64,000 nt of DNA, taken from assembly GCA_023898465.1 (NCBI GenBank), contig CP060223.1, positions 256,001-320,000 of the forward strand, in the 5' to 3' direction. Positions 16,941 through 45,392 of this stretch are shown piece after piece. The notes below the pieces were generated by a model. It saw only the letters and a list, made by a program, of their open reading frames with translations, had not been told where the DNA came from and did not search any database. Positions within the stretch are counted from its first letter, which is position 1. Every line of letters begins with the position of its first letter. The stretch is from Candidatus Nomurabacteria bacterium. Lineage in GTDB: Bacteria > Patescibacteriota > Patescibacteriia > HK-STAS-PATE-3. The translations under genes and the position numbers were made by a program.

Positions 16941-17600
16941 ATGTTAGGTTATCTTTTGCTCATTATATCGGTTGTAGAGTTTTTTATTGGCCTGTACCTT
17001 ATTTTTCGCTATGAAAAAAGCCAGGCAACAACATATTACGGTCTCTTTGCAATAAGTGTTGCGATCTATGTTGCCGCGAACGGTTTCGGATTTACCCGAG
17101 CTTCTGATAACGAGTTTATTTTTGAGCAACTTGCTTGGTTTGGCGGCTTACTTAGCGCCCCATTTATCCTTGGCTTCAGTTATAGCTTTCCTAGCCCTAA
17201 AAAATATCCCACTGAGCTATTTCCGTGGGTAATTTGGCCAGTAGTGTTATTTGGCGCAGGAATTTTTACTTCAAATATTTTCCTGGAGAAAACGTATATT
17301 TATTCCTTTGCCGAAGGCTACACTGCGCCAATCGGTGTCTTTTTCTGGTTCGCCATTGCAGTATTTGCGATGTATTGGATATGGGCAATACGAAACCTGC
17401 TGTATACGAGATTGCACACAAGCGGTTTTTATAGGAATTTTCTTACCATTGTGCTCATAGGGCTTTTTTCATCACTGCTTATTTCAGCAATTTTTGATAT
17501 TTACATTCCCTTAGTTTCAGTCACGCGCTACGGATATATTGGAGCATTATTCTCGTCTATTTGGCTGTTTACTACCGCGTATTTAATGGTGAGGAAGTAA
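16941..17600 (+). CDS. Stand-alone histidine-kinase N-terminal 7TM sensor-domain paralog 1 (HisKA_7TM-like)
   Basis: 219 aa, 6-7 TM. Alignable to the N-terminus of the HK at 22990: RY.KS.AT.YYGLFA...LAWFGG...PFILGFSYSFP.PKK versus R.ENTSSRLFGATV...FLLFSWYFPKK. Ends exactly where the kinase linker would begin. Confidence 0.65.
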   Translation: MLGYLLLIISVVEFFIGLYLIFRYEKSQATTYYGLFAISVAIYVAANGFGFTRASDNEFIFEQLAWFGGLLSAPFILGFSYSFPSPKKYPTELFPWVIWPVVLFGAGIFTSNIFLEKTYIYSFAEGYTAPIGVFFWFAIAVFAMYWIWAIRNLLYTRLHTSGFYRNFLTIVLIGLFSSLLISAIFDIYIPLVSVTRYGYIGALFSSIWLFTTAYLMVRK

Positions 17601-17601
17601 G

Positions 17602-18261
17602 ATGATTGGATATATATTACTCATTATCTCAGTTGTTGAAGTAATACTCGGTTTTTATTTGATTTTTCGATATGTAAAAAGTCCAGCAACTATATATTAC
17701 GGCCTATTCGCGCTAAGTGTAGCACTCTATGTAGGTGCAAACGGGTATGGTTTTAGTCCGTTTTCAGAAAATGATATATGGCTGGAAATAATTGCCTGGA
17801 TTGGCGGGACCTTTACCGCTCCTTTTATTCTTGGCTTCAGTTACTCATTCCCTTATCCACGTAAGTCCAATAAGGAAATACTGTCTTTAGTTCTTAGTCC
17901 ACTCGTTTTTTTCTTCGTCGTAATACTTTTTTCTAATACTTTTGTAGATCATAATAGTGTTATCAGCTTTGATGAAGGATTTCAAAGACCTGTCGGGGAG
18001 TTACACTGGTTTGTATTATCAGTATTCTTTTTCTATTGGGTTTGGTCTTTTATTGAACTAGTAAAGAGTCGAAAAAAATCCGACGGCTTTAATAAGAATT
18101 TTCTTCTTATTTTAATTATAGGCTTAGTTTTTTCTTTGTTGGTTTCGGTATTTACTAACATCATTCATCCACTTGTCGATGTTTCAAAGTTAGGTTATAT
18201 GGGCCCCTTAGCCTCTTCAATCTGGCTATTTATTACTGGGTACTTGATATTGAGGAAGTAA
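17602..18261 (+). CDS. 7TM sensor-domain paralog 2
   Basis: About 50% identical to paralog 1; 1-nt intergenic gap. Confidence 0.65.
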   Translation: MIGYILLIISVVEVILGFYLIFRYVKSPATIYYGLFALSVALYVGANGYGFSPFSENDIWLEIIAWIGGTFTAPFILGFSYSFPYPRKSNKEILSLVLSPLVFFFVVILFSNTFVDHNSVISFDEGFQRPVGELHWFVLSVFFFYWVWSFIELVKSRKKSDGFNKNFLLILIIGLVFSLLVSVFTNIIHPLVDVSKLGYMGPLASSIWLFITGYLILRK

Positions 18262-18932
18262 TGAACACCTTTCATTTAGTTTTACTTTTTACACTTTTCT
18301 TTATTCACGCGACTCTCGCAATATGGATGTTGCGTAGATATGTGCAGACGCTATCCATTCGTTATTACTCAGGCTTTTTATTTGGACTAGCACTTATTGC
18401 ACTATTAAATGGTTTATTGCTGTTATTTGGCGGTCAGGAGAGTCAAACAGTCCTTCATAAGATCGGCTTTATCTCAGGCACCTTCACTTTTGTGATGTTC
18501 TTTATGTTTAGTAAGTACTTTCCAATTTCTACTGCAAGACCAAACTCCCGCGACATTCTTTTTTGGGTAATTCCGATTACATTTTTTATTCCATTCATAC
18601 TTTTTAATCAGCAGTTTATCCAGTCTGTGATTATAGAAAATGGAATAAGTAAGCCTACATTTGGAGTCTGGTATACACCATTTATGTTAGTTTTGGCCAC
18701 CTTTGTTCTGGGGGCTATCTATAATCTCATACAGAAATATAAAATAACCACTGAACTTGAAATTAGGAAGAACATTAGAGACATTACGGCAGTATTTTTC
18801 GTATCAGGACTCCTTGGCTTTTTGTTGGACGTTGTGTTGCCAAGGTTTAATGTTTATACGGCACATTACTTTGCCATTGAATCTTCACTTTTTGTTGCGC
18901 TAACTACTGCAATTATTATTGCAAAGAAGTAA
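18261..18932 (+). CDS. 7TM sensor-domain paralog 3
   Basis: Same length class and topology; overlaps the previous stop. Confidence 0.6.
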   Translation: MNTFHLVLLFTLFFIHATLAIWMLRRYVQTLSIRYYSGFLFGLALIALLNGLLLLFGGQESQTVLHKIGFISGTFTFVMFFMFSKYFPISTARPNSRDILFWVIPITFFIPFILFNQQFIQSVIIENGISKPTFGVWYTPFMLVLATFVLGAIYNLIQKYKITTELEIRKNIRDITAVFFVSGLLGFLLDVVLPRFNVYTAHYFAIESSLFVALTTAIIIAKK

Positions 18933-18933
18933 G

Positions 18934-37381: not shown

Positions 37382-37456
37382 GGCCCTATCGTCTAGTGGC
37401 TAGGACGCATGGTTCTCATCCATGTAACAGGGGTTCGATTCCCCTTAGGGCTACCA
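37382..37456 (+). tRNA. tRNA-Glu (anticodon CUC), CCA encoded
   Basis: Strong similarity to canonical tRNA-Glu (TCGTCTAGTGGCTAGGAC D-arm; anticodon loop TTCTCAT; T-arm GGGGTTCGATTCCCC; acceptor GGCCCTA/TAGGGCT with G1-U72). Confidence 0.85.
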
Positions 37457-37610: not shown

Positions 37611-37634
37611 GGTCGATTCCCCTTAGGGCTACCA
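37611..37634 (+). repeat. Direct repeat of the 3' 24-25 nt of tRNA-Glu (candidate att scar, or a tRNA-like RNA 3' end)
   Basis: GGTCGATTCCCCTTAGGGCTACCA matches tRNA positions 37432-37456 apart from a 1-nt deletion, and lies 155 bp downstream. Confidence 0.7.
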
Positions 37635-38520: not shown

Positions 38521-39633
38521 ATGAAGATTGGCATAGTTACGCAGAGCTTTTTCCCCATTCGCGGAGGTGTCGCAGAACACGTCTATCATACAGCGCATGC
38601 TTTAGAGCGGCGCGGACACGAGGTCGTTATTATTACGGCCAATTTTAGTCGTTTTGATGAGGATAGGGGATGTCGGGTCGAGCGCATCGGCCGCGATTTA
38701 ACCATTCCCTTTAATCAGGCTTTTGTAAACCTGACCATTAGCTGGAATATCCCGCAGGAGTTACGCCACCTAGAGCGCAAGTACGGCTTCGACGTGGTGC
38801 ATATTCACGGACCCTACGAACCATTTTTACCTGCCCTGGCGCTGAAGAATATCGAGTGCCCAAAGGTTGGCACTTTTCATGCCTTTAACGCGCATCCCTC
38901 GTTGGGCTATCGCGTGTTTGAAAATTACATCCGAACCTTTAAGGATCGTTTGTCAGCCCGCATCGCGGTTTCGCAAGCCGCTAAGGACTTTATCTCGCAT
39001 CATTTCCCGGATGATTATGAAATCATCCCAAACGGCGTGGATGTGCAGCGCTTTAGTCCGCAGGTCAAACCCTTCCCTTGGTATAACCCAGAGAAATTCA
39101 CCATCCTCTTTGTCGGTCGTATGGATCCGCGCAAAGGTTTGAAATATCTCTTACGCGCCTTCACCATGATCGCGTCCGAGTTCCCGCAGGCCGAGGTGGT
39201 GGTTGTCGGCAATGGTATATTGCGTCGCTATTACGAAACCTTTTTAGAGCCGAGCCTGAAAGATCGCGTGCGTTTCGAGGGCTTTGTCTCGGCTGCAGAT
39301 TTACCGCGCTACTATGCCTCCAGCGATGTGTATGTGTCGCCAGCCACCGGCAATGAGAGTTTCGGCATTGTCTTGCTCGAGGGTATGGCCAGCGGCAAGC
39401 CGGTGATTGCGTCGGATATTGACGGGTATCGGGATGTGATTCGCCATGGCCAGGATGGGATTTTGGTGCCAAAATCTGACCCAGCCGCCCTAGCCCAGGC
39501 TCTCCGCACCCTGGCCCGTGACCCGCAAGAAAGAGCAAAATACCAGCAGGCCGGCCGTCAGCGGGCTGAGGAATTCTCCTGGGAGTCTATTACTGACCGC
39601 TTGGAGGAGGTGTATAGGAGGGTGGTGTATTGA
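38521..39633 (+). CDS. Glycosyltransferase family 4 (GT-B, retaining)
   Basis: C-terminal E-x7-E region FGIVLLEGMASGKPVIASDIDGYRDVI; N-terminal GGV motif. Confidence 0.85.
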   Translation: MKIGIVTQSFFPIRGGVAEHVYHTAHALERRGHEVVIITANFSRFDEDRGCRVERIGRDLTIPFNQAFVNLTISWNIPQELRHLERKYGFDVVHIHGPYEPFLPALALKNIECPKVGTFHAFNAHPSLGYRVFENYIRTFKDRLSARIAVSQAAKDFISHHFPDDYEIIPNGVDVQRFSPQVKPFPWYNPEKFTILFVGRMDPRKGLKYLLRAFTMIASEFPQAEVVVVGNGILRRYYETFLEPSLKDRVRFEGFVSAADLPRYYASSDVYVSPATGNESFGIVLLEGMASGKPVIASDIDGYRDVIRHGQDGILVPKSDPAALAQALRTLARDPQERAKYQQAGRQRAEEFSWESITDRLEEVYRRVVY

Positions 39634-39666: not shown

Positions 39667-42600
39667 ATGGACTCTGCCCCATTAACACTACAAACGAAGA
39701 CACTGCAGAGGTCTTCCGATCTAAATAATTACAGACTCTATCGCGCAGCTCTTGAATGGGAGTTGATTGATCCTATTGTCATAGAAGACCGGGATGACAT
39801 GCATTCCGAAAGTAGTTGGCGTGATCGTCTTGAGCCGTATCATCATCAAGTAACTAACCTAATAACTTTTTGTCGTCGCCTACCTGTTACTTTACTGGCG
39901 GATGATGTCGGGTTAGGAAAAACAATTAGTGCTGGCCTAGTTTTAAGCGAGTTAATTTCGCGCGGGAGAATTTCAAAAATATTAATAGTTTGCCCAAAAA
40001 TACTTCGAGATCAGTGGAAAGAAGAATTGGAAATAAAGTTCCGAATTCCGTCCACAATTGTGACAGGAAGAGAATTAATTACGGCAAAGCCTCCTGAAGA
40101 ACCAGGAGCGGTAATTACCACATACAATACGGCCAGACTGTATTTAGATAGAATTGACCAGAATGGTTTTGAAATATTGATACTTGATGAGGCGCATAAA
40201 TTGCGGAATCTATATGGTGTTGACCCAACACCTCAAGTTGCAATTAAATTCCGTAAAGCTCTGGCTGACCGGATGTTTAAGTACGTATTAATGTTAACTG
40301 CAACGCCGATCCAGAACAGACTATGGGATCTCTACTCGTTGGTTGACTTATTAACCGTTGCACGCGGCCATGAAAATCCCTTTGGAACGCCAGGTATTTT
40401 TGCGAGAAAATTTATTGCAGATAGTCGCACACAAGCGCGTCAGCTTAATCCGGAGATGCGGGATGAGTTTCGCTCAATTATTTACGGTTATATGTCTCGG
40501 GTTCGTCGTGGAGATGCAAAACTCCACTTCCCAGAGCGGGTAGTACAGTTGCATAAAGTTGACCCAACACCAGAAGAATTGCAGTTGATCGGTGTGGTCG
40601 GAAAATCTATACAACAACTGAATGCGCTTACACAAATTGTAATCCTCCAAGCTTTGGTGAGTAGTCCAGAAGCGCTAATAAAGATGTTAGAAGGAATGGC
40701 TAAAAAAGGAACCGTACCGCGTGAGGTGTTGGCGAACGTTAAGGAATCAGCCAAAGAAATTCAAATCACTACAAAACTAAAAGGTTTGGGCGCGTTAGTT
40801 GAAAAACTTAGAAAGGAGCAACCCAATACTTGGCGGGTGGTAGTTTTTACAAGATGGCGAGAAACTCAAACAACTATCGAAACTTTTCTTGAAAAGCAAG
40901 GAGTAAAATGCGGCTTGATAAATGGCGATTCAAGTAAGCGAAATCAGGAAACAATCCAAAGATTTAAAAAAGACTTACCAGACATTAATGTAATTATTTC
41001 TACTGAAGCAGGTTCGGAGGGCGTTAACCTTCAGGCCGCTAATGTTTTGGTTAATTACGATCTCCCCTGGAATCCAATGATAGTGGAACAAAGAATAGGT
41101 CGTATTCAAAGACTTGCTTCTAATTATGCAAATGTTTCTATTTTTAATATTGTTTTGCAAAATACCTTTGAAGAATATATTGTAGGGCGCTTGATGGAAA
41201 AGTTGCAGATGGCTTCTCATGCAATTGGGGATATTGAAGCACTATTGGAAGCATCCGGCATTGATGAAGGTGAAGAAAATGGCTCAAGTGGTTTTGAAGA
41301 AAAAATTCGCCAGTTAGTAGTTGCATCTTTAGCTGGAAAAGATGTTGAGCAGGCAACTCGTAAAGCTGAACAGAGTATTTCAGAAGCTAAAACAGAATTA
41401 GACCATGAAGAAAAGAACATTAATGCTTTACTTGGGGGGATGAGTGATTCTCTAGATTCTGGTCCAAGATGTCCGAAGCTTCCTCAAACTACTAAGTCGA
41501 TGGATGTCCGTGATTTTACTACGGCTGCTCTTATGAGCTTAGGCGCGGAACTACATCCAAAAAAGGATGGTTTATTAGTTTCACAACTTGCTGGGAAAAA
41601 AGAATTAATCCGATTTGATAATAACACTCTGAGCAGTGAAGAGGAGAGTGTCTTATATGCACCGGGAACTTCAACTTTTGAACGCTTAGTCCATAAAGTT
41701 GCAAATGTAGGAAAACACATTGTTGAAGACCTTGATAAAAACCCCCAACAGCAAATTGAGAAAGTAAGTCGTCAATGGGTCGAAAGTTTTGGCGGAGACT
41801 TCGAAAATGTAACGGTAGAGGACGTTTCTCGATGTTTTGCAGGAGTAGCAATAATTCGTGCAAGATCAACAGTAGCTCACGATAGTTATGAGCGTCTCAT
41901 TGAGGTTTCGTGCGCTCCCACTGAGCATTTCAGTTTTGTGACAAGAACGGGATTGGAACCCATCGGAGACTATATTGAAAATCCGACATCTGTTGGTGCG
42001 CTTTCAGAAAAATTAATTGAAAAAGCCAGCCAAGACTCGAGTATTCTTGAGTTCTGTAGATTTTATTTAGAACGAAGATCTCAAGAAATTGCCTCCGCAG
42101 GAAATGACGAAAGAAAAAAGAAAAAGCTTGAGGATGAGTTTACGCCCCGTCTTGAATTTTCCCTAGTCGGTCTTGAGGGCAAGGTTCATCGGATAGTTAA
42201 AAATCAGGTCTCTTATAGAATTGAACGTGAGGGCCAATACAAAAGTACCCTCATGATAACCCCCTCTTCTGGGCAAGTTGATATGCCGGGGATGGGACAA
42301 TGCATGAAAACAGGTAAGACTGTACCGAGCGATTGCTTAGCAAAGTGCGAAATAAGCGGACTTATAGTATTGCGGCATTTTCTTGATCAATCAGAGATCA
42401 GTAATCGACTGGCGCTCCCTGAGCACATCGTTTTATGTACGTTAAGCAACAAGCGAGTGCTAGCGGACGAAGCTATAAAATCAGATGTTACGGGCAAACT
42501 AGTCGCAAAGAAGTTTTTAAAAACATCTTCTCTGAGTGGCAAATTCGCTGAACCACAGTTCATTAACACTTGTGAGTTTACAAAAACAGAAGTTCTGGAA

Positions 42601-43194
42601 AGCGAAATTGCGGTCAGCCAGATTTCAGGAAAAAGATATCGCATTGATGAGCAACTTAAATCCGCAGTTTCAGGAAAACTAGGCCATCGACAAGAATTTG
42701 TAGCAAGTAGTATTTCATCAGCCCCACTTCTTGAAGAAGAAGCCATTCGTTCGGTCACTGGAAAATTTTGTGCACCAATGGAAGCGAGGCCCTGCACTTG
42801 GAGTGGTCGAAAGTGTCACCCCGAAGACCTTAGGACTTGCGAGTTGACCGGAGTCCAAATTCATTCAGAGTACGTAACGCTCGAACCACCAATTCGTTTA
42901 GAAACCCTAAATAATCTTTTGAATGGCACGAGGAGCAAATCTGACAAATTGGAAGTATGGCCTTCACTTTCAAATAGCGTTACAGCTTTATTAAAAGCAA
43001 AACGTTGTAAAATTGAAACAGCAGAAGTTTCACCTAGTGACGATATTTTGGCCGCTTCTATAGAGCTTCGAACTTTTCTAGGCCTGCGCGTGAGTCACAT
43101 TGGCGTACTTTATTCAATAAAGGATGGATCCGTAGTCGGGCGTGTTGCTAGAGGCAAGCGTGGTGATAAGGGCTGGAATCAAACTAAGAACTAA
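39667..43194 (+). CDS. SNF2-family helicase with about 600-aa repeat-containing C-terminal extension
   Basis: Motif I DDVGLGKTISAG, motif II LILDEAHKLRN, motif III LTATPIQNRLWDL, motif VI QRIGRIQR. C-terminal half has no known domain but contains about 8 short S/T-G-K repeats. Confidence 0.85.
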   Translation: MDSAPLTLQTKTLQRSSDLNNYRLYRAALEWELIDPIVIEDRDDMHSESSWRDRLEPYHHQVTNLITFCRRLPVTLLADDVGLGKTISAGLVLSELISRGRISKILIVCPKILRDQWKEELEIKFRIPSTIVTGRELITAKPPEEPGAVITTYNTARLYLDRIDQNGFEILILDEAHKLRNLYGVDPTPQVAIKFRKALADRMFKYVLMLTATPIQNRLWDLYSLVDLLTVARGHENPFGTPGIFARKFIADSRTQARQLNPEMRDEFRSIIYGYMSRVRRGDAKLHFPERVVQLHKVDPTPEELQLIGVVGKSIQQLNALTQIVILQALVSSPEALIKMLEGMAKKGTVPREVLANVKESAKEIQITTKLKGLGALVEKLRKEQPNTWRVVVFTRWRETQTTIETFLEKQGVKCGLINGDSSKRNQETIQRFKKDLPDINVIISTEAGSEGVNLQAANVLVNYDLPWNPMIVEQRIGRIQRLASNYANVSIFNIVLQNTFEEYIVGRLMEKLQMASHAIGDIEALLEASGIDEGEENGSSGFEEKIRQLVVASLAGKDVEQATRKAEQSISEAKTELDHEEKNINALLGGMSDSLDSGPRCPKLPQTTKSMDVRDFTTAALMSLGAELHPKKDGLLVSQLAGKKELIRFDNNTLSSEEESVLYAPGTSTFERLVHKVANVGKHIVEDLDKNPQQQIEKVSRQWVESFGGDFENVTVEDVSRCFAGVAIIRARSTVAHDSYERLIEVSCAPTEHFSFVTRTGLEPIGDYIENPTSVGALSEKLIEKASQDSSILEFCRFYLERRSQEIASAGNDERKKKKLEDEFTPRLEFSLVGLEGKVHRIVKNQVSYRIEREGQYKSTLMITPSSGQVDMPGMGQCMKTGKTVPSDCLAKCEISGLIVLRHFLDQSEISNRLALPEHIVLCTLSNKRVLADEAIKSDVTGKLVAKKFLKTSSLSGKFAEPQFINTCEFTKTEVLESEIAVSQISGKRYRIDEQLKSAVSGKLGHRQEFVASSISSAPLLEEEAIRSVTGKFCAPMEARPCTWSGRKCHPEDLRTCELTGVQIHSEYVTLEPPIRLETLNNLLNGTRSKSDKLEVWPSLSNSVTALLKAKRCKIETAEVSPSDDILAASIELRTFLGLRVSHIGVLYSIKDGSVVGRVARGKRGDKGWNQTKN

Positions 43195-43195
43195 T

Positions 43196-44686
43196 ATGAA
43201 CCCTCTACTTACAAAAACCGATTATCTTCTTTACCGGGAATGCCCAAAGAATGTTTGGTATAAAATCCAAAAACCTGAATTGTATGCTACATCGGAGCTA
43301 ACAGAGTTTGAAAAATCGATAATGGAAACAGGTAATGAGGTTGAAAAGATTGCAAGGCAACTTTTTCCAAACGGGGTGTTAGTAACTTATCGTGATGCGC
43401 GCGGTCAAGCTGAGACACAAAAGCTATTGGCGGAGAACAAGGATGTGATTTTTCAGCCAGTTTTTGTCAAAAATAACTTTTTGGCTGCTATTGATGTTCT
43501 ACAAAAAGAAAAGAATGGCAAGGGCTACAATGTTTACGAAATAAAATCGACTAGTGATGTAGATAAGAAAACACATTTTCACGACCTAGCATTTCAAGTA
43601 AACGTTCTCAGAATGACAGGCCTGGGAATTAATAAATCATTTGTCATTCATCTAAACTCTGAATATATTCGAAAGGGAGAAATTGAGCTGGATCAGTTAT
43701 TTAAAGTATCAGATGTGACGGATGAAGTAGAAAGTCTTTTACCGGATGTTGCGACTGAGGCGGAAGAAGCATTGAAGTATATTAGCCAAACTTCTGAACC
43801 AGAGGGGTACTGCTGCTGTATTTATAAAGGTCGATCAAGGCATTGTTCAACCTTTCAGCTAGCGAACCCCGAAGTACCCGAATATAGTGTCCACGATATT
43901 TCTAGGATAGGGGTAAGCAAGGCTAAATTAAAAGAGCTAATTGACGGAAGTATTTTTCACCTGGACAAGATTCCGCCACACATTAAATTAAGCGAAATTC
44001 AACAAGGTCAAGTTGAAACCTATAAATTGAATAAGGTATTAGTAGATAAGGAAAGAATTGCGGAAGAATTTAGTGGTCTCACATTCCCACTTTATTTTCT
44101 TGATTATGAAACATTTCCATCAGCAATACCAAGATATGATGGCTTTTCACCATATAAACAAATTCCGTTCCAGTATTCTGTTTACAAACTAGATTCAGTC
44201 GAGAGTGAGCCAACTCATTTTGATTTTTTGTACTCTGGTCCCGAAGACCCCAGCAAGCACTTTGCCGAGTCTTTAAGGGAACATATCGGGGATAAAGGCT
44301 CGATCATCGTTTGGCATAAAGACTTCGAGTGTGGCAGAAATAATGAAATAGGTAGTCGAATTCCTACTTCGAAGGCTTTTTTTGACTCTGTTAATCAGCG
44401 AGTATACGATCTCGAAGACATTTTCAAGAAACAATACCACGTTCATCGAGATTATAAGGGAAGCACATCTATTAAAAACGTATTGCCTGTTTTAGTGCCA
44501 GAATTAACGTATAAAGACCTTGAAATTCGTGATGGTGGCAGTGCAGCGGATAGTTGGGACAAAATAATTAGTGGTGTATATAACGAGACAGAGAAAGAAA
44601 AGGTAATAAAAGATTTAAAGATTTATTGTGGTCTTGATACATTTGCAATGTATGCTATTTGGAATTGCTTGAACAAGCTACTCTAA
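43196..44686 (+). CDS. Cas4/RecB-like PD-(D/E)xK nuclease domain protein with probable Fe-S cluster, plus a C-terminal domain of unknown function
   Basis: N-terminal Cys (YRECPKNVWY); motif II IDVL; motif III YEIKS; Cys cluster EGYCCCIYKGRSRHC. Start taken at MNPLLTK (ATG 43196), overlapping the SNF2 stop region. Confidence 0.6.
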   Translation: MNPLLTKTDYLLYRECPKNVWYKIQKPELYATSELTEFEKSIMETGNEVEKIARQLFPNGVLVTYRDARGQAETQKLLAENKDVIFQPVFVKNNFLAAIDVLQKEKNGKGYNVYEIKSTSDVDKKTHFHDLAFQVNVLRMTGLGINKSFVIHLNSEYIRKGEIELDQLFKVSDVTDEVESLLPDVATEAEEALKYISQTSEPEGYCCCIYKGRSRHCSTFQLANPEVPEYSVHDISRIGVSKAKLKELIDGSIFHLDKIPPHIKLSEIQQGQVETYKLNKVLVDKERIAEEFSGLTFPLYFLDYETFPSAIPRYDGFSPYKQIPFQYSVYKLDSVESEPTHFDFLYSGPEDPSKHFAESLREHIGDKGSIIVWHKDFECGRNNEIGSRIPTSKAFFDSVNQRVYDLEDIFKKQYHVHRDYKGSTSIKNVLPVLVPELTYKDLEIRDGGSAADSWDKIISGVYNETEKEKVIKDLKIYCGLDTFAMYAIWNCLNKLL

Positions 44687-44690
44687 ACCT

Positions 44691-45392
44691 ATGAGCTTTC
44701 TTAAGATTTTTAGTGATGATTCTAAAGACAAGCCAAAAGAAAATGATAGTCGGAAACCTGAATGTCCATACTGTCAGGGCGTTTTAGTTAAAATTCCTGC
44801 TAGAAAAACAAAATGTTTTCACTGTGGGAAATATATTTTTGTACGAACACAGACAAAGGACAGAAAGCTCGTTTTGGTTACTGAAGAAAATTCGGCCGCG
44901 ATAGACTCTGAATGGGAGTCAAAACAAGCCGCTACGATCACTTCATTGGTGGAGAAAGTAGATTTTACAAAGAAAAAAGAAGGTCTGCGCGAAGGGTTTG
45001 GGGACAAGGAACCCTCCGTTAGTGACATAAAGTGGGGCTTGTGGAACAAGAGGCTTCAGGAAGCAATGAAACGCAATGATTTTTCAGAACTTTCAGGAAT
45101 ATATTTTCAAATGGCTCTGCGCTTGCACGAAAGTGGAAAAGACAGCTTTAAACTTCAGGGCCAGGCTCAAAAAATGTTTTTGTTTAAAGAAAAGCAAAGC
45201 GGTGTTGTTTCTAGCGTAGAGGTTTTTTCTAGAGATGGCTGTGAAGAATGTAAGAAAATAAACGGAAAGAAATTTGTTATTTTTGAAGCACTAAAACTCA
45301 TGCCACTACCCGTTCAATCCTGCACAAACAAACTGAATAAGAATGCGCCCAATGGTTGGTGTCGATGCACTTTTCTTCCTTTTATAGATTAA
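44691..45392 (+). CDS. Zn-ribbon-containing hypothetical protein
   Basis: CPYCQG...CFHCGK N-terminal C4 ribbon; C-terminal Cys pairs (CEEC; CRC); 4-nt gap after the nuclease gene. Confidence 0.5.
   Translation: MSFLKIFSDDSKDKPKENDSRKPECPYCQGVLVKIPARKTKCFHCGKYIFVRTQTKDRKLVLVTEENSAAIDSEWESKQAATITSLVEKVDFTKKKEGLREGFGDKEPSVSDIKWGLWNKRLQEAMKRNDFSELSGIYFQMALRLHESGKDSFKLQGQAQKMFLFKEKQSGVVSSVEVFSRDGCEECKKINGKKFVIFEALKLMPLPVQSCTNKLNKNAPNGWCRCTFLPFID

What the first reader, a model, noticed from the sequence alone, without database searches (positions are those of the whole stretch)
42300..42870. Array of about 8 short S/T-G-K-centred peptide repeats inside the SNF2 protein's C-terminal extension
Between about residues 880 and 1070 the protein reads ...CEISGLIVL / SDVTGKLVAKKF / SSLSGKFAEPQF / CEFTKTEVLESE / SQISGKRYRIDE / SAVSGKLGHRQEF / RSVTGKFCAPME / CELTGVQIHSEY... 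These are 12-17-aa units with a conserved (S/C)-x-(I/L/V)-(S/T)-G-(K)-h pattern. No standard repeat family is recognisable. They may form a solenoid, or serve as recognition or modification sites (Ser/Thr-Gly-Lys).
Basis: seen in the sequence. Interest (0 to 1): 0.5.

Follow-up and report, generated by a model that had tools for sequence, protein, structure and literature searches.

The report
Zinc-free knuckle-hairpin rod in SNF2 ATPase
The flagged peptide repeats are real: 13 back-to-back 15-residue units predicted to stack into a rod of zinc-finger-like hairpins that lack the zinc ligands, in a widespread and undescribed family of bacterial SNF2 DNA motors where the same rod runs from 13 to about 86 units.

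Summary
Residues 879-1072 of the 1175-aa SNF2 protein (nt 42301-42882) hold 13 units, not about 8. The period is strictly 15 residues (one unit has 14), not 12-17. The lag-15 autocorrelation has z = 9.2, and no shuffle out of 2000 reached it. The consensus is [C/S]-x-h-[T/S]-G-[K/R]-x-h-L-P-[D/S]-[E/L]-L-x-x.

The zinc ligands are absent: position 4 is essentially never Cys (0.00 of 2170 units). Positions 1 and 4 are structural. Cys pairs with Thr and Ser with Ser, and a Ser at position 1 is followed by Glu at position 12 of the next unit in about 98% of cases. This argues against modification sites and against metal sites.

No Pfam or NCBIfam model covers the array. The family has 734 clusters at 50% identity and always reads SNF2 core, middle domain, array, cap. 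It is often operon-linked to a Cas4-like plus RNase H-like nuclease, on islands or mobile elements.

I read the array as a length-variable structural arm. Its function remains inferred.

The parts
39667..43194 (+). Gene for the 1175-aa SNF2-family ATPase (public record USN53812.1, 'DEAD/DEAH box helicase', Candidatus Nomurabacteria).
   Evidence: ORF. Pfam SNF2-rel_dom 3.4e-26 and Helicase_C 4e-21. Exact-sequence look-up. Motifs GLGKT, DEAH, TATP and QRIGRIQR can be read in the translation.
39817..41241 (+). SNF2 motor core (residues 51-525).
   Evidence: Pfam. PDB sequence matches cover only about residues 52-525, for example Sulfolobus Rad54-like 1z63 and RapA. The N-terminal 600 residues that contain this core are 59-82% identical to homologues across phyla.
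41242..42300 (+). Middle domain (residues 526-878). It is family-specific and its last roughly 45 residues are beta-hairpins leading into the array.
   Evidence: Found in 88 of 90 family members of at least 1100 aa. No Pfam hit. The first roughly 130 residues are covered by the DrmD/BrxH-type PADLOC and NCBIfam models. Strands E11-45 of the model.
42301..42882 (+). The finding: 13 tandem 15-residue knuckle-hairpin units (residues 879-1072). Unit starts are at nt 42301, 42346, 42391, 42436, 42481, 42526, 42571, 42616, 42661, 42706, 42751, 42793 and 42838.
   Evidence: Autocorrelation z = 9.2 at lag 15. AF2 pLDDT 96-98 with one repeated secondary-structure pattern. Units are orthologously conserved in homologues.
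42883..43191 (+). C-terminal cap domain (residues 1073-1175): two helices followed by a four-strand antiparallel sheet plus one short terminal strand, with a cystatin/NTF2-like fold.
43196..44686 (+). DUF2779 protein (Cas4-like PD-(D/E)XK N-terminus plus RNase H-like exonuclease domain). Its start lies 1 nt after the SNF2 stop.
   Evidence: Pfam DUF2779 7.9e-36. PADLOC Cas4 4.5e-07. Domain reading from PMC3985635 and PMC13621843. Adjacent to the SNF2 gene in L002, L003, L005, L018, L033 and L040.
44691..45392 (+). 233-aa protein with an N-terminal CxxC...CxxC zinc-ribbon-like motif. It starts 4 nt after the DUF2779 stop and is the last gene of the low-GC island.
   Evidence: ORF. Only sub-threshold Pfam hits. 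Relatives lie next to the SNF2 gene in L008, L022 and L031. GC is 0.41 over 40-46 kb against about 0.49 in the flanks.

Best explanation
The repeats form a structural arm. Thirteen 15-residue units each fold into a zinc-knuckle-type beta-hairpin. Positions 1-6, [C/S]xx[T/S]G[K/R], make the knuckle turn. Positions 7-9 are a strand, 10-12 (P-D/S-E/L) a 3-10 turn, and 13-15 a strand. The units stack head to tail into an elongated rod that links the SNF2 motor and middle domain to a C-terminal cystatin/NTF2-like cap.

The place that a CxxC knuckle would give to zinc is filled by side-chain interlocks of two kinds. One is polar: Ser1, Ser4 and Glu12 of the next unit. The other is apolar: Cys1, Thr4 and Leu or an aromatic at position 12 of the next unit. 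Acid-base pairs between neighbouring units add to this. The rod is therefore metal-free, and its conserved Ser/Thr-Gly-Lys residues are architectural.

Across the family the rod changes length in register, from 13 to about 86 units, by deletion or duplication of blocks of units. The motor, middle domain and order of parts stay fixed.

Inferred function: the arm holds the cap, and unit-specific binding surfaces, at a set distance from a dsDNA-translocating motor. The motor works with an operon-linked Cas4-like/RNase H-like nuclease as a mobile module, probably anti-invader.

Shown here: the repeat, its register, the covariation rules, the absence of ligand sets, the family architecture and the gene linkage. 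Predicted: the fold. Inferred: the arm or spacer role, partner docking and the defence role.
For: - Periodicity: z = 9.2 at lag 15.
- Fold: AF2 gives pLDDT 94.5 for residues 834-1175 and 96.0 for 873-1075, with an identical pattern in every unit.
- JGI's pipeline labels a long-array homologue 'ribosomal protein S27E', which is a zinc ribbon.
- No ligand sets: in 2170 units, position 1 is C 64% / S 35%, and position 4 is S 57% / T 42% / C 0.00.
- Structural coupling: pos1-pos4 odds ratio 17, p about 5e-112. K/R at pos6 against D/E at pos2 of the preceding unit, odds ratio 4.5.
- The strongest corrected mutual information is between pos1 of unit i and pos12 of unit i+1. Next come pos8-pos13 within a unit, pos8(i)-pos9(i+1), pos1-pos4 within a unit and pos14(i)-pos13(i+1), then 15(i)-7(i+1) across the knuckle.
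- A Ser at pos1 is followed by Glu at pos12 of the next unit in 539 of about 550 cases. A Cys is followed by Leu in 398 and Glu in 141.
- The array is charge-neutral: +2 here, -7 and -9 in two arrays of about 1000 aa.
- Length variation: spacing is 15 in 1507 of about 2060 successive unit pairs and mostly a multiple of 15 in the rest. Arrays run to about 86 units. Higher-order repeats of 180/181 aa occur. The query lacks units 10-13 of the 17-unit orthologues.
- Fixed architecture: 90 of 90 long members have the SNF2 core and 88 of 90 the middle domain.
- Unit-specific conservation: 61% against 24%.
- Context: a nuclease is adjacent in about 16 of 42 loci, DUF2779 in 7 and the PF13482 type in 9. 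A serine recombinase is present in 7. One homologue lies among MmeI-like RM, RES, GmrSD, MZB and PLD genes. Others sit beside integrases and toxin-antitoxin genes. In the window the genes form a low-GC three-gene island.
Against: - The covariation counts come from related proteins and internally duplicated units, so the p-values are inflated. A 98% against roughly 15% contrast is hard to explain that way, however.
- A pure spacer would not need 61% unit-by-unit conservation across phyla, so the arm must also bind something, and nothing here identifies what.
- The nuclease partner is absent from more than half of the loci.
- No defence model in PADLOC (2023) matches the cassette beyond generic SNF2 and Cas4 similarity.
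- No relative was found in the phage, plasmid or IMG/VR collections.
Confidence: 0.55

Rival explanations
1. The array is a nucleic-acid-binding surface. Each knuckle presents K/R at positions 6-7, and the row of units tracks along DNA or RNA, so that array length sets the footprint.
For: Basic residues occupy position 6 in 57% of units and position 7 in about 38%. Zinc-ribbon and knuckle modules commonly bind nucleic acids (general knowledge). The host protein is a DNA translocase. Unit-specific conservation implies a specific ligand.
Against: The array is electrically neutral or slightly acidic: +2 over 194 aa here, -7 and -9 over about 1000 aa elsewhere. The basic residues covary with acidic residues of neighbouring units, as expected for internal salt bridges. 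There is no sequence or fold match to a known DNA-binding repeat.
Confidence: 0.2
2. The array is a chain of real metal sites. The Cys at position 1 of several units, plus His, would together coordinate zinc or iron.
For: Local fold similarity to two-zinc fingers. Cys is at position 1 in 64% of units. In the 13- to 17-unit subfamily C1035, C1043, H1051 and C1058 are invariant near the distal end, as are C879, C890 and C894 at the proximal end. One or two true sites at the ends cannot be excluded.
Against: Position 4, the second ligand of a CxxC knuckle, is Ser or Thr in 99% of units and Cys in 0.00. Cys and Ser interchange freely at position 1, and Ser-units use a Glu partner instead. Cys-units recur every third unit and are anticorrelated at distances 1 and 2, so Cys residues are not brought together pairwise. 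The end-cysteines are not conserved in long-array members such as P0056.
Confidence: 0.05
3. The S/T-G-K motifs are acceptor sites for phosphorylation, glycosylation, acylation or similar, or recognition motifs for a partner enzyme.
For: The motif recurs regularly with a hydroxyl residue and a lysine. A GT4 glycosyltransferase gene lies immediately upstream at 38521-39633.
Against: The hydroxyl residue covaries with position 1 as a packed pair, and AF2 places it inside a knuckle turn with very high confidence. The GT4 gene has host-like GC and is not found next to the SNF2 gene in any of the 38 loci then held. Repeat acceptor sites are usually in disordered regions, whereas this region is predicted to be fully ordered.
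Confidence: 0.03
4. The repeat is an evolutionary relic or filler without function of its own, and the confident AF2 model reflects only its regularity.
For: The number of units varies about 6-fold among homologues. The CPR clade has lost four units without losing the gene.
Against: Each unit is individually conserved across phyla at 61% identity. The strict register is maintained: deletions and duplications are multiples of units. Specific covariation rules hold over more than 1500 unit pairs. The family spans 734 clusters at 50% identity.
Confidence: 0.04

Closest known systems
Zinc-knuckle / zinc-ribbon hairpins, as in cross-braced two-zinc fingers (FYVE, Slp/rabphilin, PHD, LIM, RING, C1)
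Zinc-less ('C-minus') forms of zinc-ribbon ribosomal proteins (from my own knowledge: Makarova, Ponomarev and Koonin 2001; not read here)
   Same: They give a precedent for a zinc-ribbon fold retained after the cysteines are replaced. JGI's annotation labels a long-array homologue 'ribosomal protein S27E'.
   Different: Those are single small domains. Here the zinc-free knuckle is iterated as a regular 15-residue tandem repeat with its own replacement rules, Ser-Ser-Glu or Cys-Thr-Leu.
Beta-hairpin tandem-repeat rods and solenoids (choline-binding repeats, clostridial toxin CROPs, MORN). Recalled from memory, not tested.
   Same: An elongated structure built from many short beta-hairpin units, with unit number varying among homologues.
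   Different: Those have periods of about 20-23 residues, different motifs and no Pfam cross-hit. They are extracellular or membrane-associated, whereas this one is fused to a cytoplasmic SNF2 motor.
RapA / DISARM DrmD / BREX BrxHII-type bacterial SNF2 ATPases
   Same: The motor core and about 130 residues after it match these best. PADLOC gives BrxHI|BrxHII 2.1e-57 and DrmD 2.1e-54, NCBIfam gives DrmD 1.5e-63, and the PDB search finds RapA and Sulfolobus Rad54-like.
   Different: Scores are far below the family cut-offs: 215 bits against 610 for DrmD, and 125 against 576 for RapA. No DISARM or BREX partner genes are nearby. None of these models reaches past about residue 663, so none covers the array or the cap.
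Pentapeptide-repeat proteins (MfpA)
   Same: This is the only PDB sequence-profile hit (E = 0.059), and 15 is 3 x 5.
   Different: The hit is not significant. There is no lag-5 or lag-10 periodicity. AF2 gives hairpins, not a four-sided beta-helix.

Membership tests
SNF2 / Swi2-Snf2 family ATPase (whole protein) | SNF2-related N-lobe and Helicase_C lobe above the Pfam gathering scores, with motifs I, II (DEAH), III and VI intact. | tested here: met
   SNF2-rel_dom scores 92.5 bits (cut-off 24.9) and Helicase_C 75.8 bits (cut-off 23.5). GLGKT, DEAH, TATP and QRIGRIQR are readable in the translation.
DISARM DrmD | Score above the NCBIfam equivalog cut-off, and DrmA/DrmB/DrmC or a methylase in the neighbourhood. 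| tested here: not met
   NF038317 scores 215.5 bits against a cut-off of 610, and NF038318 184 against 950. The neighbours are a GT4 glycosyltransferase, DUF2779, a 233-aa protein and hrcA-grpE.
BREX BrxHII / RapA-like helicase | Full-length match including the C-terminal alpha+beta domains, plus BREX genes (PglZ, PglX, BrxC) or RapA-equivalog score. | tested here: not met
   The best-scoring matched stretch of the top PADLOC model covers only residues 353-643, and no listed stretch of any SNF2 model reaches past about residue 663. RapA NF003426 scores 124.6 bits against 576. No BREX genes lie nearby.
Zinc ribbon / rubredoxin-type zinc knuckle | Two CxxC (or CxxH) knuckles supplying four metal ligands. 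| tested here: not met
   Position 4 is Cys in 0.00 of 2170 units, and position 1 is Ser in 35%. Ser-units pair with Glu instead.
Zinc ribbon / rubredoxin-type zinc knuckle | Hairpin with a knuckle turn (C-x-x-C-G geometry). | tested here: inconclusive
FYVE domain | Eight Cys binding two zinc ions, plus the WxxD, R(R/K)HHCR and RVC motifs. | not tested
   I did not search for the motifs; none is visible in the units by eye. The Cys count is one or fewer per unit. Pfam FYVE does not hit the array.
Any curated repeat or domain family (Pfam-A 2025, NCBIfam 20.0) | A profile match to the array or to the C-terminal 342 residues. | tested here: not met
   No family at E <= 10 for residues 879-1072 or 1073-1175. 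None for the C-terminal 342 aa in NCBIfam. None on homologues with about 70 units. The PDB profile search found nothing significant.
Pentapeptide repeat | Period 5 with A(D/N)LXX, forming a right-handed quadrilateral beta-helix. | tested here: not met
   Lags 5 and 10 are below z = 2.5. The MfpA hit has E = 0.059. AF2 shows a hairpin pattern.
Known anti-phage defence system (PADLOC-DB 2.0) | The cassette's proteins match the models of one described system. | tested here: not met
   Only generic SNF2 models hit the helicase. DUF2779 hits only Cas4, at 4.5e-07. The 233-aa protein and the PF13482-type partner hit nothing.

The most novel reading that the evidence does not exclude
The array is a previously undescribed protein building block: a metal-free, polymerised zinc-finger knuckle held together by a simple two-state interlock code (Ser-Ser-Glu or Cys-Thr-Leu). 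It forms a rigid arm whose length evolution tunes from 13 to about 86 units by adding or removing blocks. The arm acts as a ruler or tether between an SNF2 DNA motor and a distal docking domain, in a new two-gene anti-invader module made of an SNF2 arm protein and a Cas4-like/RNase H-like nuclease.
Probability: 0.3. Interest if true: 0.8.

Novelty: new variant of a known kind. Interest (0 to 1): 0.6.

Why it matters
Three reasons.

1. Structure. This would be a regular tandem-repeat architecture with no counterpart among solved structures and no entry in Pfam or NCBIfam. It appears to be built by iterating a zinc-finger knuckle that has lost its metal. The replacement rules are explicit: Cys-Thr with Leu, or Ser-Ser with Glu. 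They can be tested by mutation and could be useful for repeat-protein design.

2. SNF2 biology. The family is large (734 clusters at 50% identity) and conserved across phyla. A DNA motor carries an arm whose length varies about 6-fold in strict register. That points to a distance-setting or tethering role that has not been described for bacterial SNF2 proteins.

3. Mobile-element and defence biology. The gene is repeatedly operon-linked to a dual nuclease of the DUF2779 or PF13482 type and sits on islands and mobile elements. No catalogued defence system matches, so it is a candidate new system.

The window's copy, from a CPR bacterium, is one of the shortest forms seen here. That makes it a convenient construct for structural work.

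Tried and rejected
**Searches that found nothing**
- Pfam, NCBIfam and PADLOC scans of the array, the cap, the middle domain and long-array homologues gave no repeat or domain family.
- Foldseek against the PDB with the 342-residue model gave nothing at E <= 0.001; the top weak hit was the LMO2 LIM domains.
- The afdb50 fold library was not available, so I could not see whether AFDB holds other families with this fold.
- A PDB sequence-profile search returned only MfpA at E = 0.059, which I rejected.
- Tandem Repeats Finder found no repeat at the DNA level.
- tblastn against plasmids and phages, and a scan of IMG/VR, found no relatives.
- Literature searches (DUF2779 with SNF2; SNF2 with zinc ribbon, tandem repeats and Cas4; SNF2 with C-terminal repeats and beta-hairpin; COG2251 with helicase and defense) found no description of this family or repeat.
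- A second word-based homologue search, using 400 aa of a long array to look for non-SNF2 architectures, returned only fragments of the same family. P0222 proved to be one piece of a split SNF2 gene.
- No flanking direct repeats (att sites) were found around the 39.7-45.4 kb island.

**Technical failures**
- The first genome scan with the 54-sequence alignment failed for lack of conserved stretches. It worked with 9 sequences.
- The first autocorrelation script timed out.

**Considered and set aside**
- The antisense ORF 42387..42797 is a shadow of the conserved coding frame. Similar antisense ORFs cluster across loci only because the sense gene is conserved.


Full report
**1. What is in the sequence**

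The finding lies in ORF 39667..43194 (+), which encodes a 1175-aa protein. Pfam places an SNF2-related domain at residues 75-307 and Helicase_C at 381-483. The exact protein is public as USN53812.1, 'DEAD/DEAH box helicase', from a Candidatus Nomurabacteria (CPR) genome.

Written in register, residues 879-1072 (nt 42301-42882) form 13 consecutive units of exactly 15 residues. Only unit 11 differs, with 14 residues:

CMKTGKTVPSDCLAK / CEISGLIVLRHFLDQ / SEISNRLALPEHIVL / CTLSNKRVLADEAIK / SDVTGKLVAKKFLKT / SSLSGKFAEPQFINT / CEFTKTEVLESEIAV / SQISGKRYRIDEQLK / SAVSGKLGHRQEFVA / SSISSAPLLEEEAIR / SVTGKFCAPMEARP / CTWSGRKCHPEDLRT / CELTGVQIHSEYVTL.

The BLOSUM62 autocorrelation has z = 9.2 at lag 15, with harmonics at 30, 45 and 60 and nothing at neighbouring lags. 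None of 2000 shuffles came near it at any lag. There is no repeat at the DNA level.

**2. The array is ancient and conserved unit by unit**

The C-terminal 342 residues find 55 homologues at up to 1e-124. Most are contig-truncated C-terminal pieces of the same kind of protein. They carry the same units in the same order. Most have 17 units, and the window's protein and its closest CPR relatives lack units 10-13, an in-register loss of 60 residues.

Orthologous units are 61% identical across proteins. Different units within one protein are 24% identical. Each unit therefore has its own conserved identity.

**3. The family**

A profile search of 1.84 billion representative proteins finds 734 clusters at E <= 1e-3, and 320 at E <= 1e-30. 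All 90 listed members of at least 1100 aa have the SNF2 core, and 88 also have the middle domain.

Among them I counted 2170 units. Successive units are 15 residues apart in 1507 of about 2060 cases, and mostly a multiple of 15 apart in the rest. Array spans correspond to as many as 86 units. Long arrays contain higher-order repeats of 180/181 residues, equal to 12 units, so they grew by block duplication.

Genome hits span Patescibacteria, Nitrospirota, Acidobacteriota, Planctomycetota, Verrucomicrobiota, and Alpha-, Gamma- and Deltaproteobacteria, including cultured Bradyrhizobium, Rhodopseudomonas and Granulicella. The N-terminal 600 residues, which contain the motor, are 59-82% identical across all of these.

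**4. Predicted structure**

AlphaFold2 was run with the homologue alignment. It gives mean pLDDT 94.5 for residues 834-1175 and 96.0 for the array alone, with 97-98 across almost all of the array. Every unit has the same DSSP pattern:
- positions 1-6: an irregular turn;
- positions 7-9: a strand;
- positions 10-12: a 3-10 turn;
- positions 13-15: a strand.

Strand 13-15 of one unit and strand 7-9 of the next thus form a hairpin closed by the [C/S]xx[T/S]G[K/R] turn.

I could not access coordinates. The rod shape and its dimensions are therefore inferred, not measured.

**5. Not metal sites and not modification sites**

In 2170 units, position 1 is Cys 64% / Ser 35%. Position 4 is Ser 57% / Thr 42%, and Cys 0.00. 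Position 5 is Gly 75%. There is no CxxC and no four-ligand set.

Positions 1 and 4 are tightly coupled: Cys goes with Thr or Ser, and Ser goes with Ser in 92% of cases (odds ratio 17).

After redundancy filtering and APC correction, the strongest mutual information in the whole four-unit window is between position 1 of unit i and position 12 of unit i+1. Other top pairs are 8-13 and 1-4 within a unit, and 8(i)-9(i+1), 14(i)-13(i+1), 15(i)-7(i+1), 2(i)-6(i+1) and 3(i)-8(i+1) between neighbours.

The rule behind the top pair is simple. After a Ser at position 1, position 12 of the next unit is Glu in 539 of about 550 cases. After a Cys it is Leu in 398, Glu in 141, or His, Gln, Phe or Tyr. In the window's own array, six of the seven Ser-units are followed by Glu or Asp at that position (my reading).

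Acidic position 2 pairs with basic position 6 of the next unit, with an odds ratio of 4.5. The array as a whole is uncharged. Cys-type and Ser-type units also alternate with a period of three units, which explains the strong lag-45 signal.

These patterns are those of a packed, self-supporting repeat. The space a zinc ion would occupy is filled by a polar (Ser-Ser-Glu) or an apolar (Cys-Thr-Leu) interlock. They are not the patterns expected for exposed acceptor motifs.

One caveat remains. In the short-array subfamily, C1035, C1043, H1051 and C1058 near the distal end are invariant, as are C879, C890 and C894 at the proximal end. A single real metal site at an end cannot be excluded. These residues are not conserved in long-array members.

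**6. Gene context**

In the window, the SNF2 gene, a DUF2779 gene (start 1 nt after the SNF2 stop) and a 233-aa gene with a CxxC...CxxC motif (start 4 nt further on) form a block of GC 0.41. The block sits between host-like genes of GC about 0.49. Upstream are TIM, GAPDH, tRNA-Glu and a GT4 glycosyltransferase. Downstream are hrcA, grpE, hsp20, dnaK and dnaJ.

DUF2779 proteins are read in the literature as a Cas4-like PD-(D/E)XK nuclease fused to an RNase H-like 3'-5' exonuclease domain. The PF13482/COG2251 proteins are their closest analogues (PMC3985635 and PMC13621843).

Across the 42 loci I collected:
- DUF2779 is adjacent to the SNF2 gene in 7, on either side and tightly spaced;
- a 624-aa PF13482-type protein is adjacent in 9;
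- a serine recombinase is present in 7;
- the 233-aa protein is present in 4;
- a ParB-methylase is present in 3.

One long-array member lies among MmeI-like RM, RES, GmrSD, helicase+MZB and PLD genes. Others lie beside integrases and toxin-antitoxin pairs. No PADLOC system matches beyond generic SNF2 and Cas4 similarity. No relative was found in the plasmid, phage or IMG/VR collections.

**7. Most likely mechanism**

The motor motifs are intact, and its nearest relatives are dsDNA translocases: Sulfolobus Rad54-like, RapA, DrmD and BrxHII.

I read the array as a rigid, metal-free arm that projects the cystatin/NTF2-like cap away from the motor. Three observations fit an architectural element whose length matters: the strict in-register evolution, the 6-fold range in length, and the fixed order of parts.

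The 61% unit-specific conservation in the short subfamily says that the arm also presents specific binding surfaces. The operon-linked nuclease is the obvious candidate partner, but nothing here shows it.

The island and mobile-element context makes an anti-invader role, or a role serving the mobile element itself, the best guess. The structure-level reading is well supported. The functional steps are inference.

**8. Comparison with known families, and novelty**

The protein is a member of the SNF2 family. It is not DrmD, RapA or BrxHII by their curated thresholds or by its neighbours.

The repeat works like a chain of zinc knuckles but fails the defining test of a zinc ribbon or FYVE finger, since it has no ligand sets. 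It matches no curated repeat family, and I found no paper describing it.

I file it as a new variant of a known kind: a zinc-knuckle hairpin turned into a metal-free tandem repeat. The family as a whole has not been described.

Noticed in passing
window 37435-37456 and 37613-37634: The last 22 nt of tRNA-Glu (37382-37456) are repeated exactly 178 nt downstream. This looks like an att-type scar from an integration or excision at the tRNA.
   Followed up: no
window 16941-25785: A low-GC stretch (GC 0.33-0.41) carries a run of tandem open reading frames of about 220-230 aa. Three of them hit the HisKA_7TM model but have no kinase domain. They are followed by a FeeM/autoinducer-synthase-like GNAT (20967-21641), a ThiF-family protein (22239-23021) and a 931-aa 7TM-GAF histidine kinase (22990-25785). 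This is a signalling or quorum-sensing-like cluster, which is unusual for a CPR genome.
   Followed up: partly
window 39667-45392: The SNF2, DUF2779 and 233-aa genes form a block of GC 0.41 between host-like genes of GC about 0.49. The intergenic gaps are 1 and 4 nt. No flanking direct repeats were found. The closest relatives in other CPR genomes are not flanked by a homologue of the window's upstream GT4 gene, which fits horizontal transfer.
   Followed up: partly
window 44691-45392; L008 7836-8624, L022 11224-11835, L031 8334-8945: The 233-aa protein with an N-terminal CPYC...CFHC motif has no family assignment. Relatives at about 36% identity lie next to the SNF2 gene in three other genomes, so it may be an optional third component.
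   Followed up: partly
L039 (JGI 3300071644 contig), genes 1-22297: The 2098-aa homologue with about 72 units lies in a dense defence island: a second SNF2 protein, an MmeI-like type IIL RM enzyme, a RES-domain protein, GmrSD, a helicase plus MZB, and a PLD nuclease.
   Followed up: no
P0056 residues 896-1985; also P0058, P0062, P0075: Long arrays contain higher-order repeats of 180/181 residues, equal to 12 units, with 42% identity at lag 181 in P0056. P0075 has repeats of 59/118 residues. Arrays therefore grow by duplication of multi-unit blocks.
   Followed up: partly
L001 1700-5469, L002 7209-10903, L043 3556-6801: In three metagenomic contigs the SNF2 gene is split into 2-4 consecutive ORFs. 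These are either true pseudogenes or frameshift errors of long-read assemblies.
   Followed up: no
window 42387-42797 (- strand): A 136-aa antisense ORF lies inside the repeat region. Similar antisense ORFs appear in many homologous loci only because the sense frame is conserved, so I treat it as a shadow ORF.
   Followed up: partly
window residues 1035-1058 of the SNF2 protein (nt 42769-42840): C1035, C1043, W1045, H1051, D1054 and C1058 are invariant in the 13- to 17-unit subfamily. This could be a single CCHC metal site capping the distal end of the array. They are not conserved in long-array members.
   Followed up: partly
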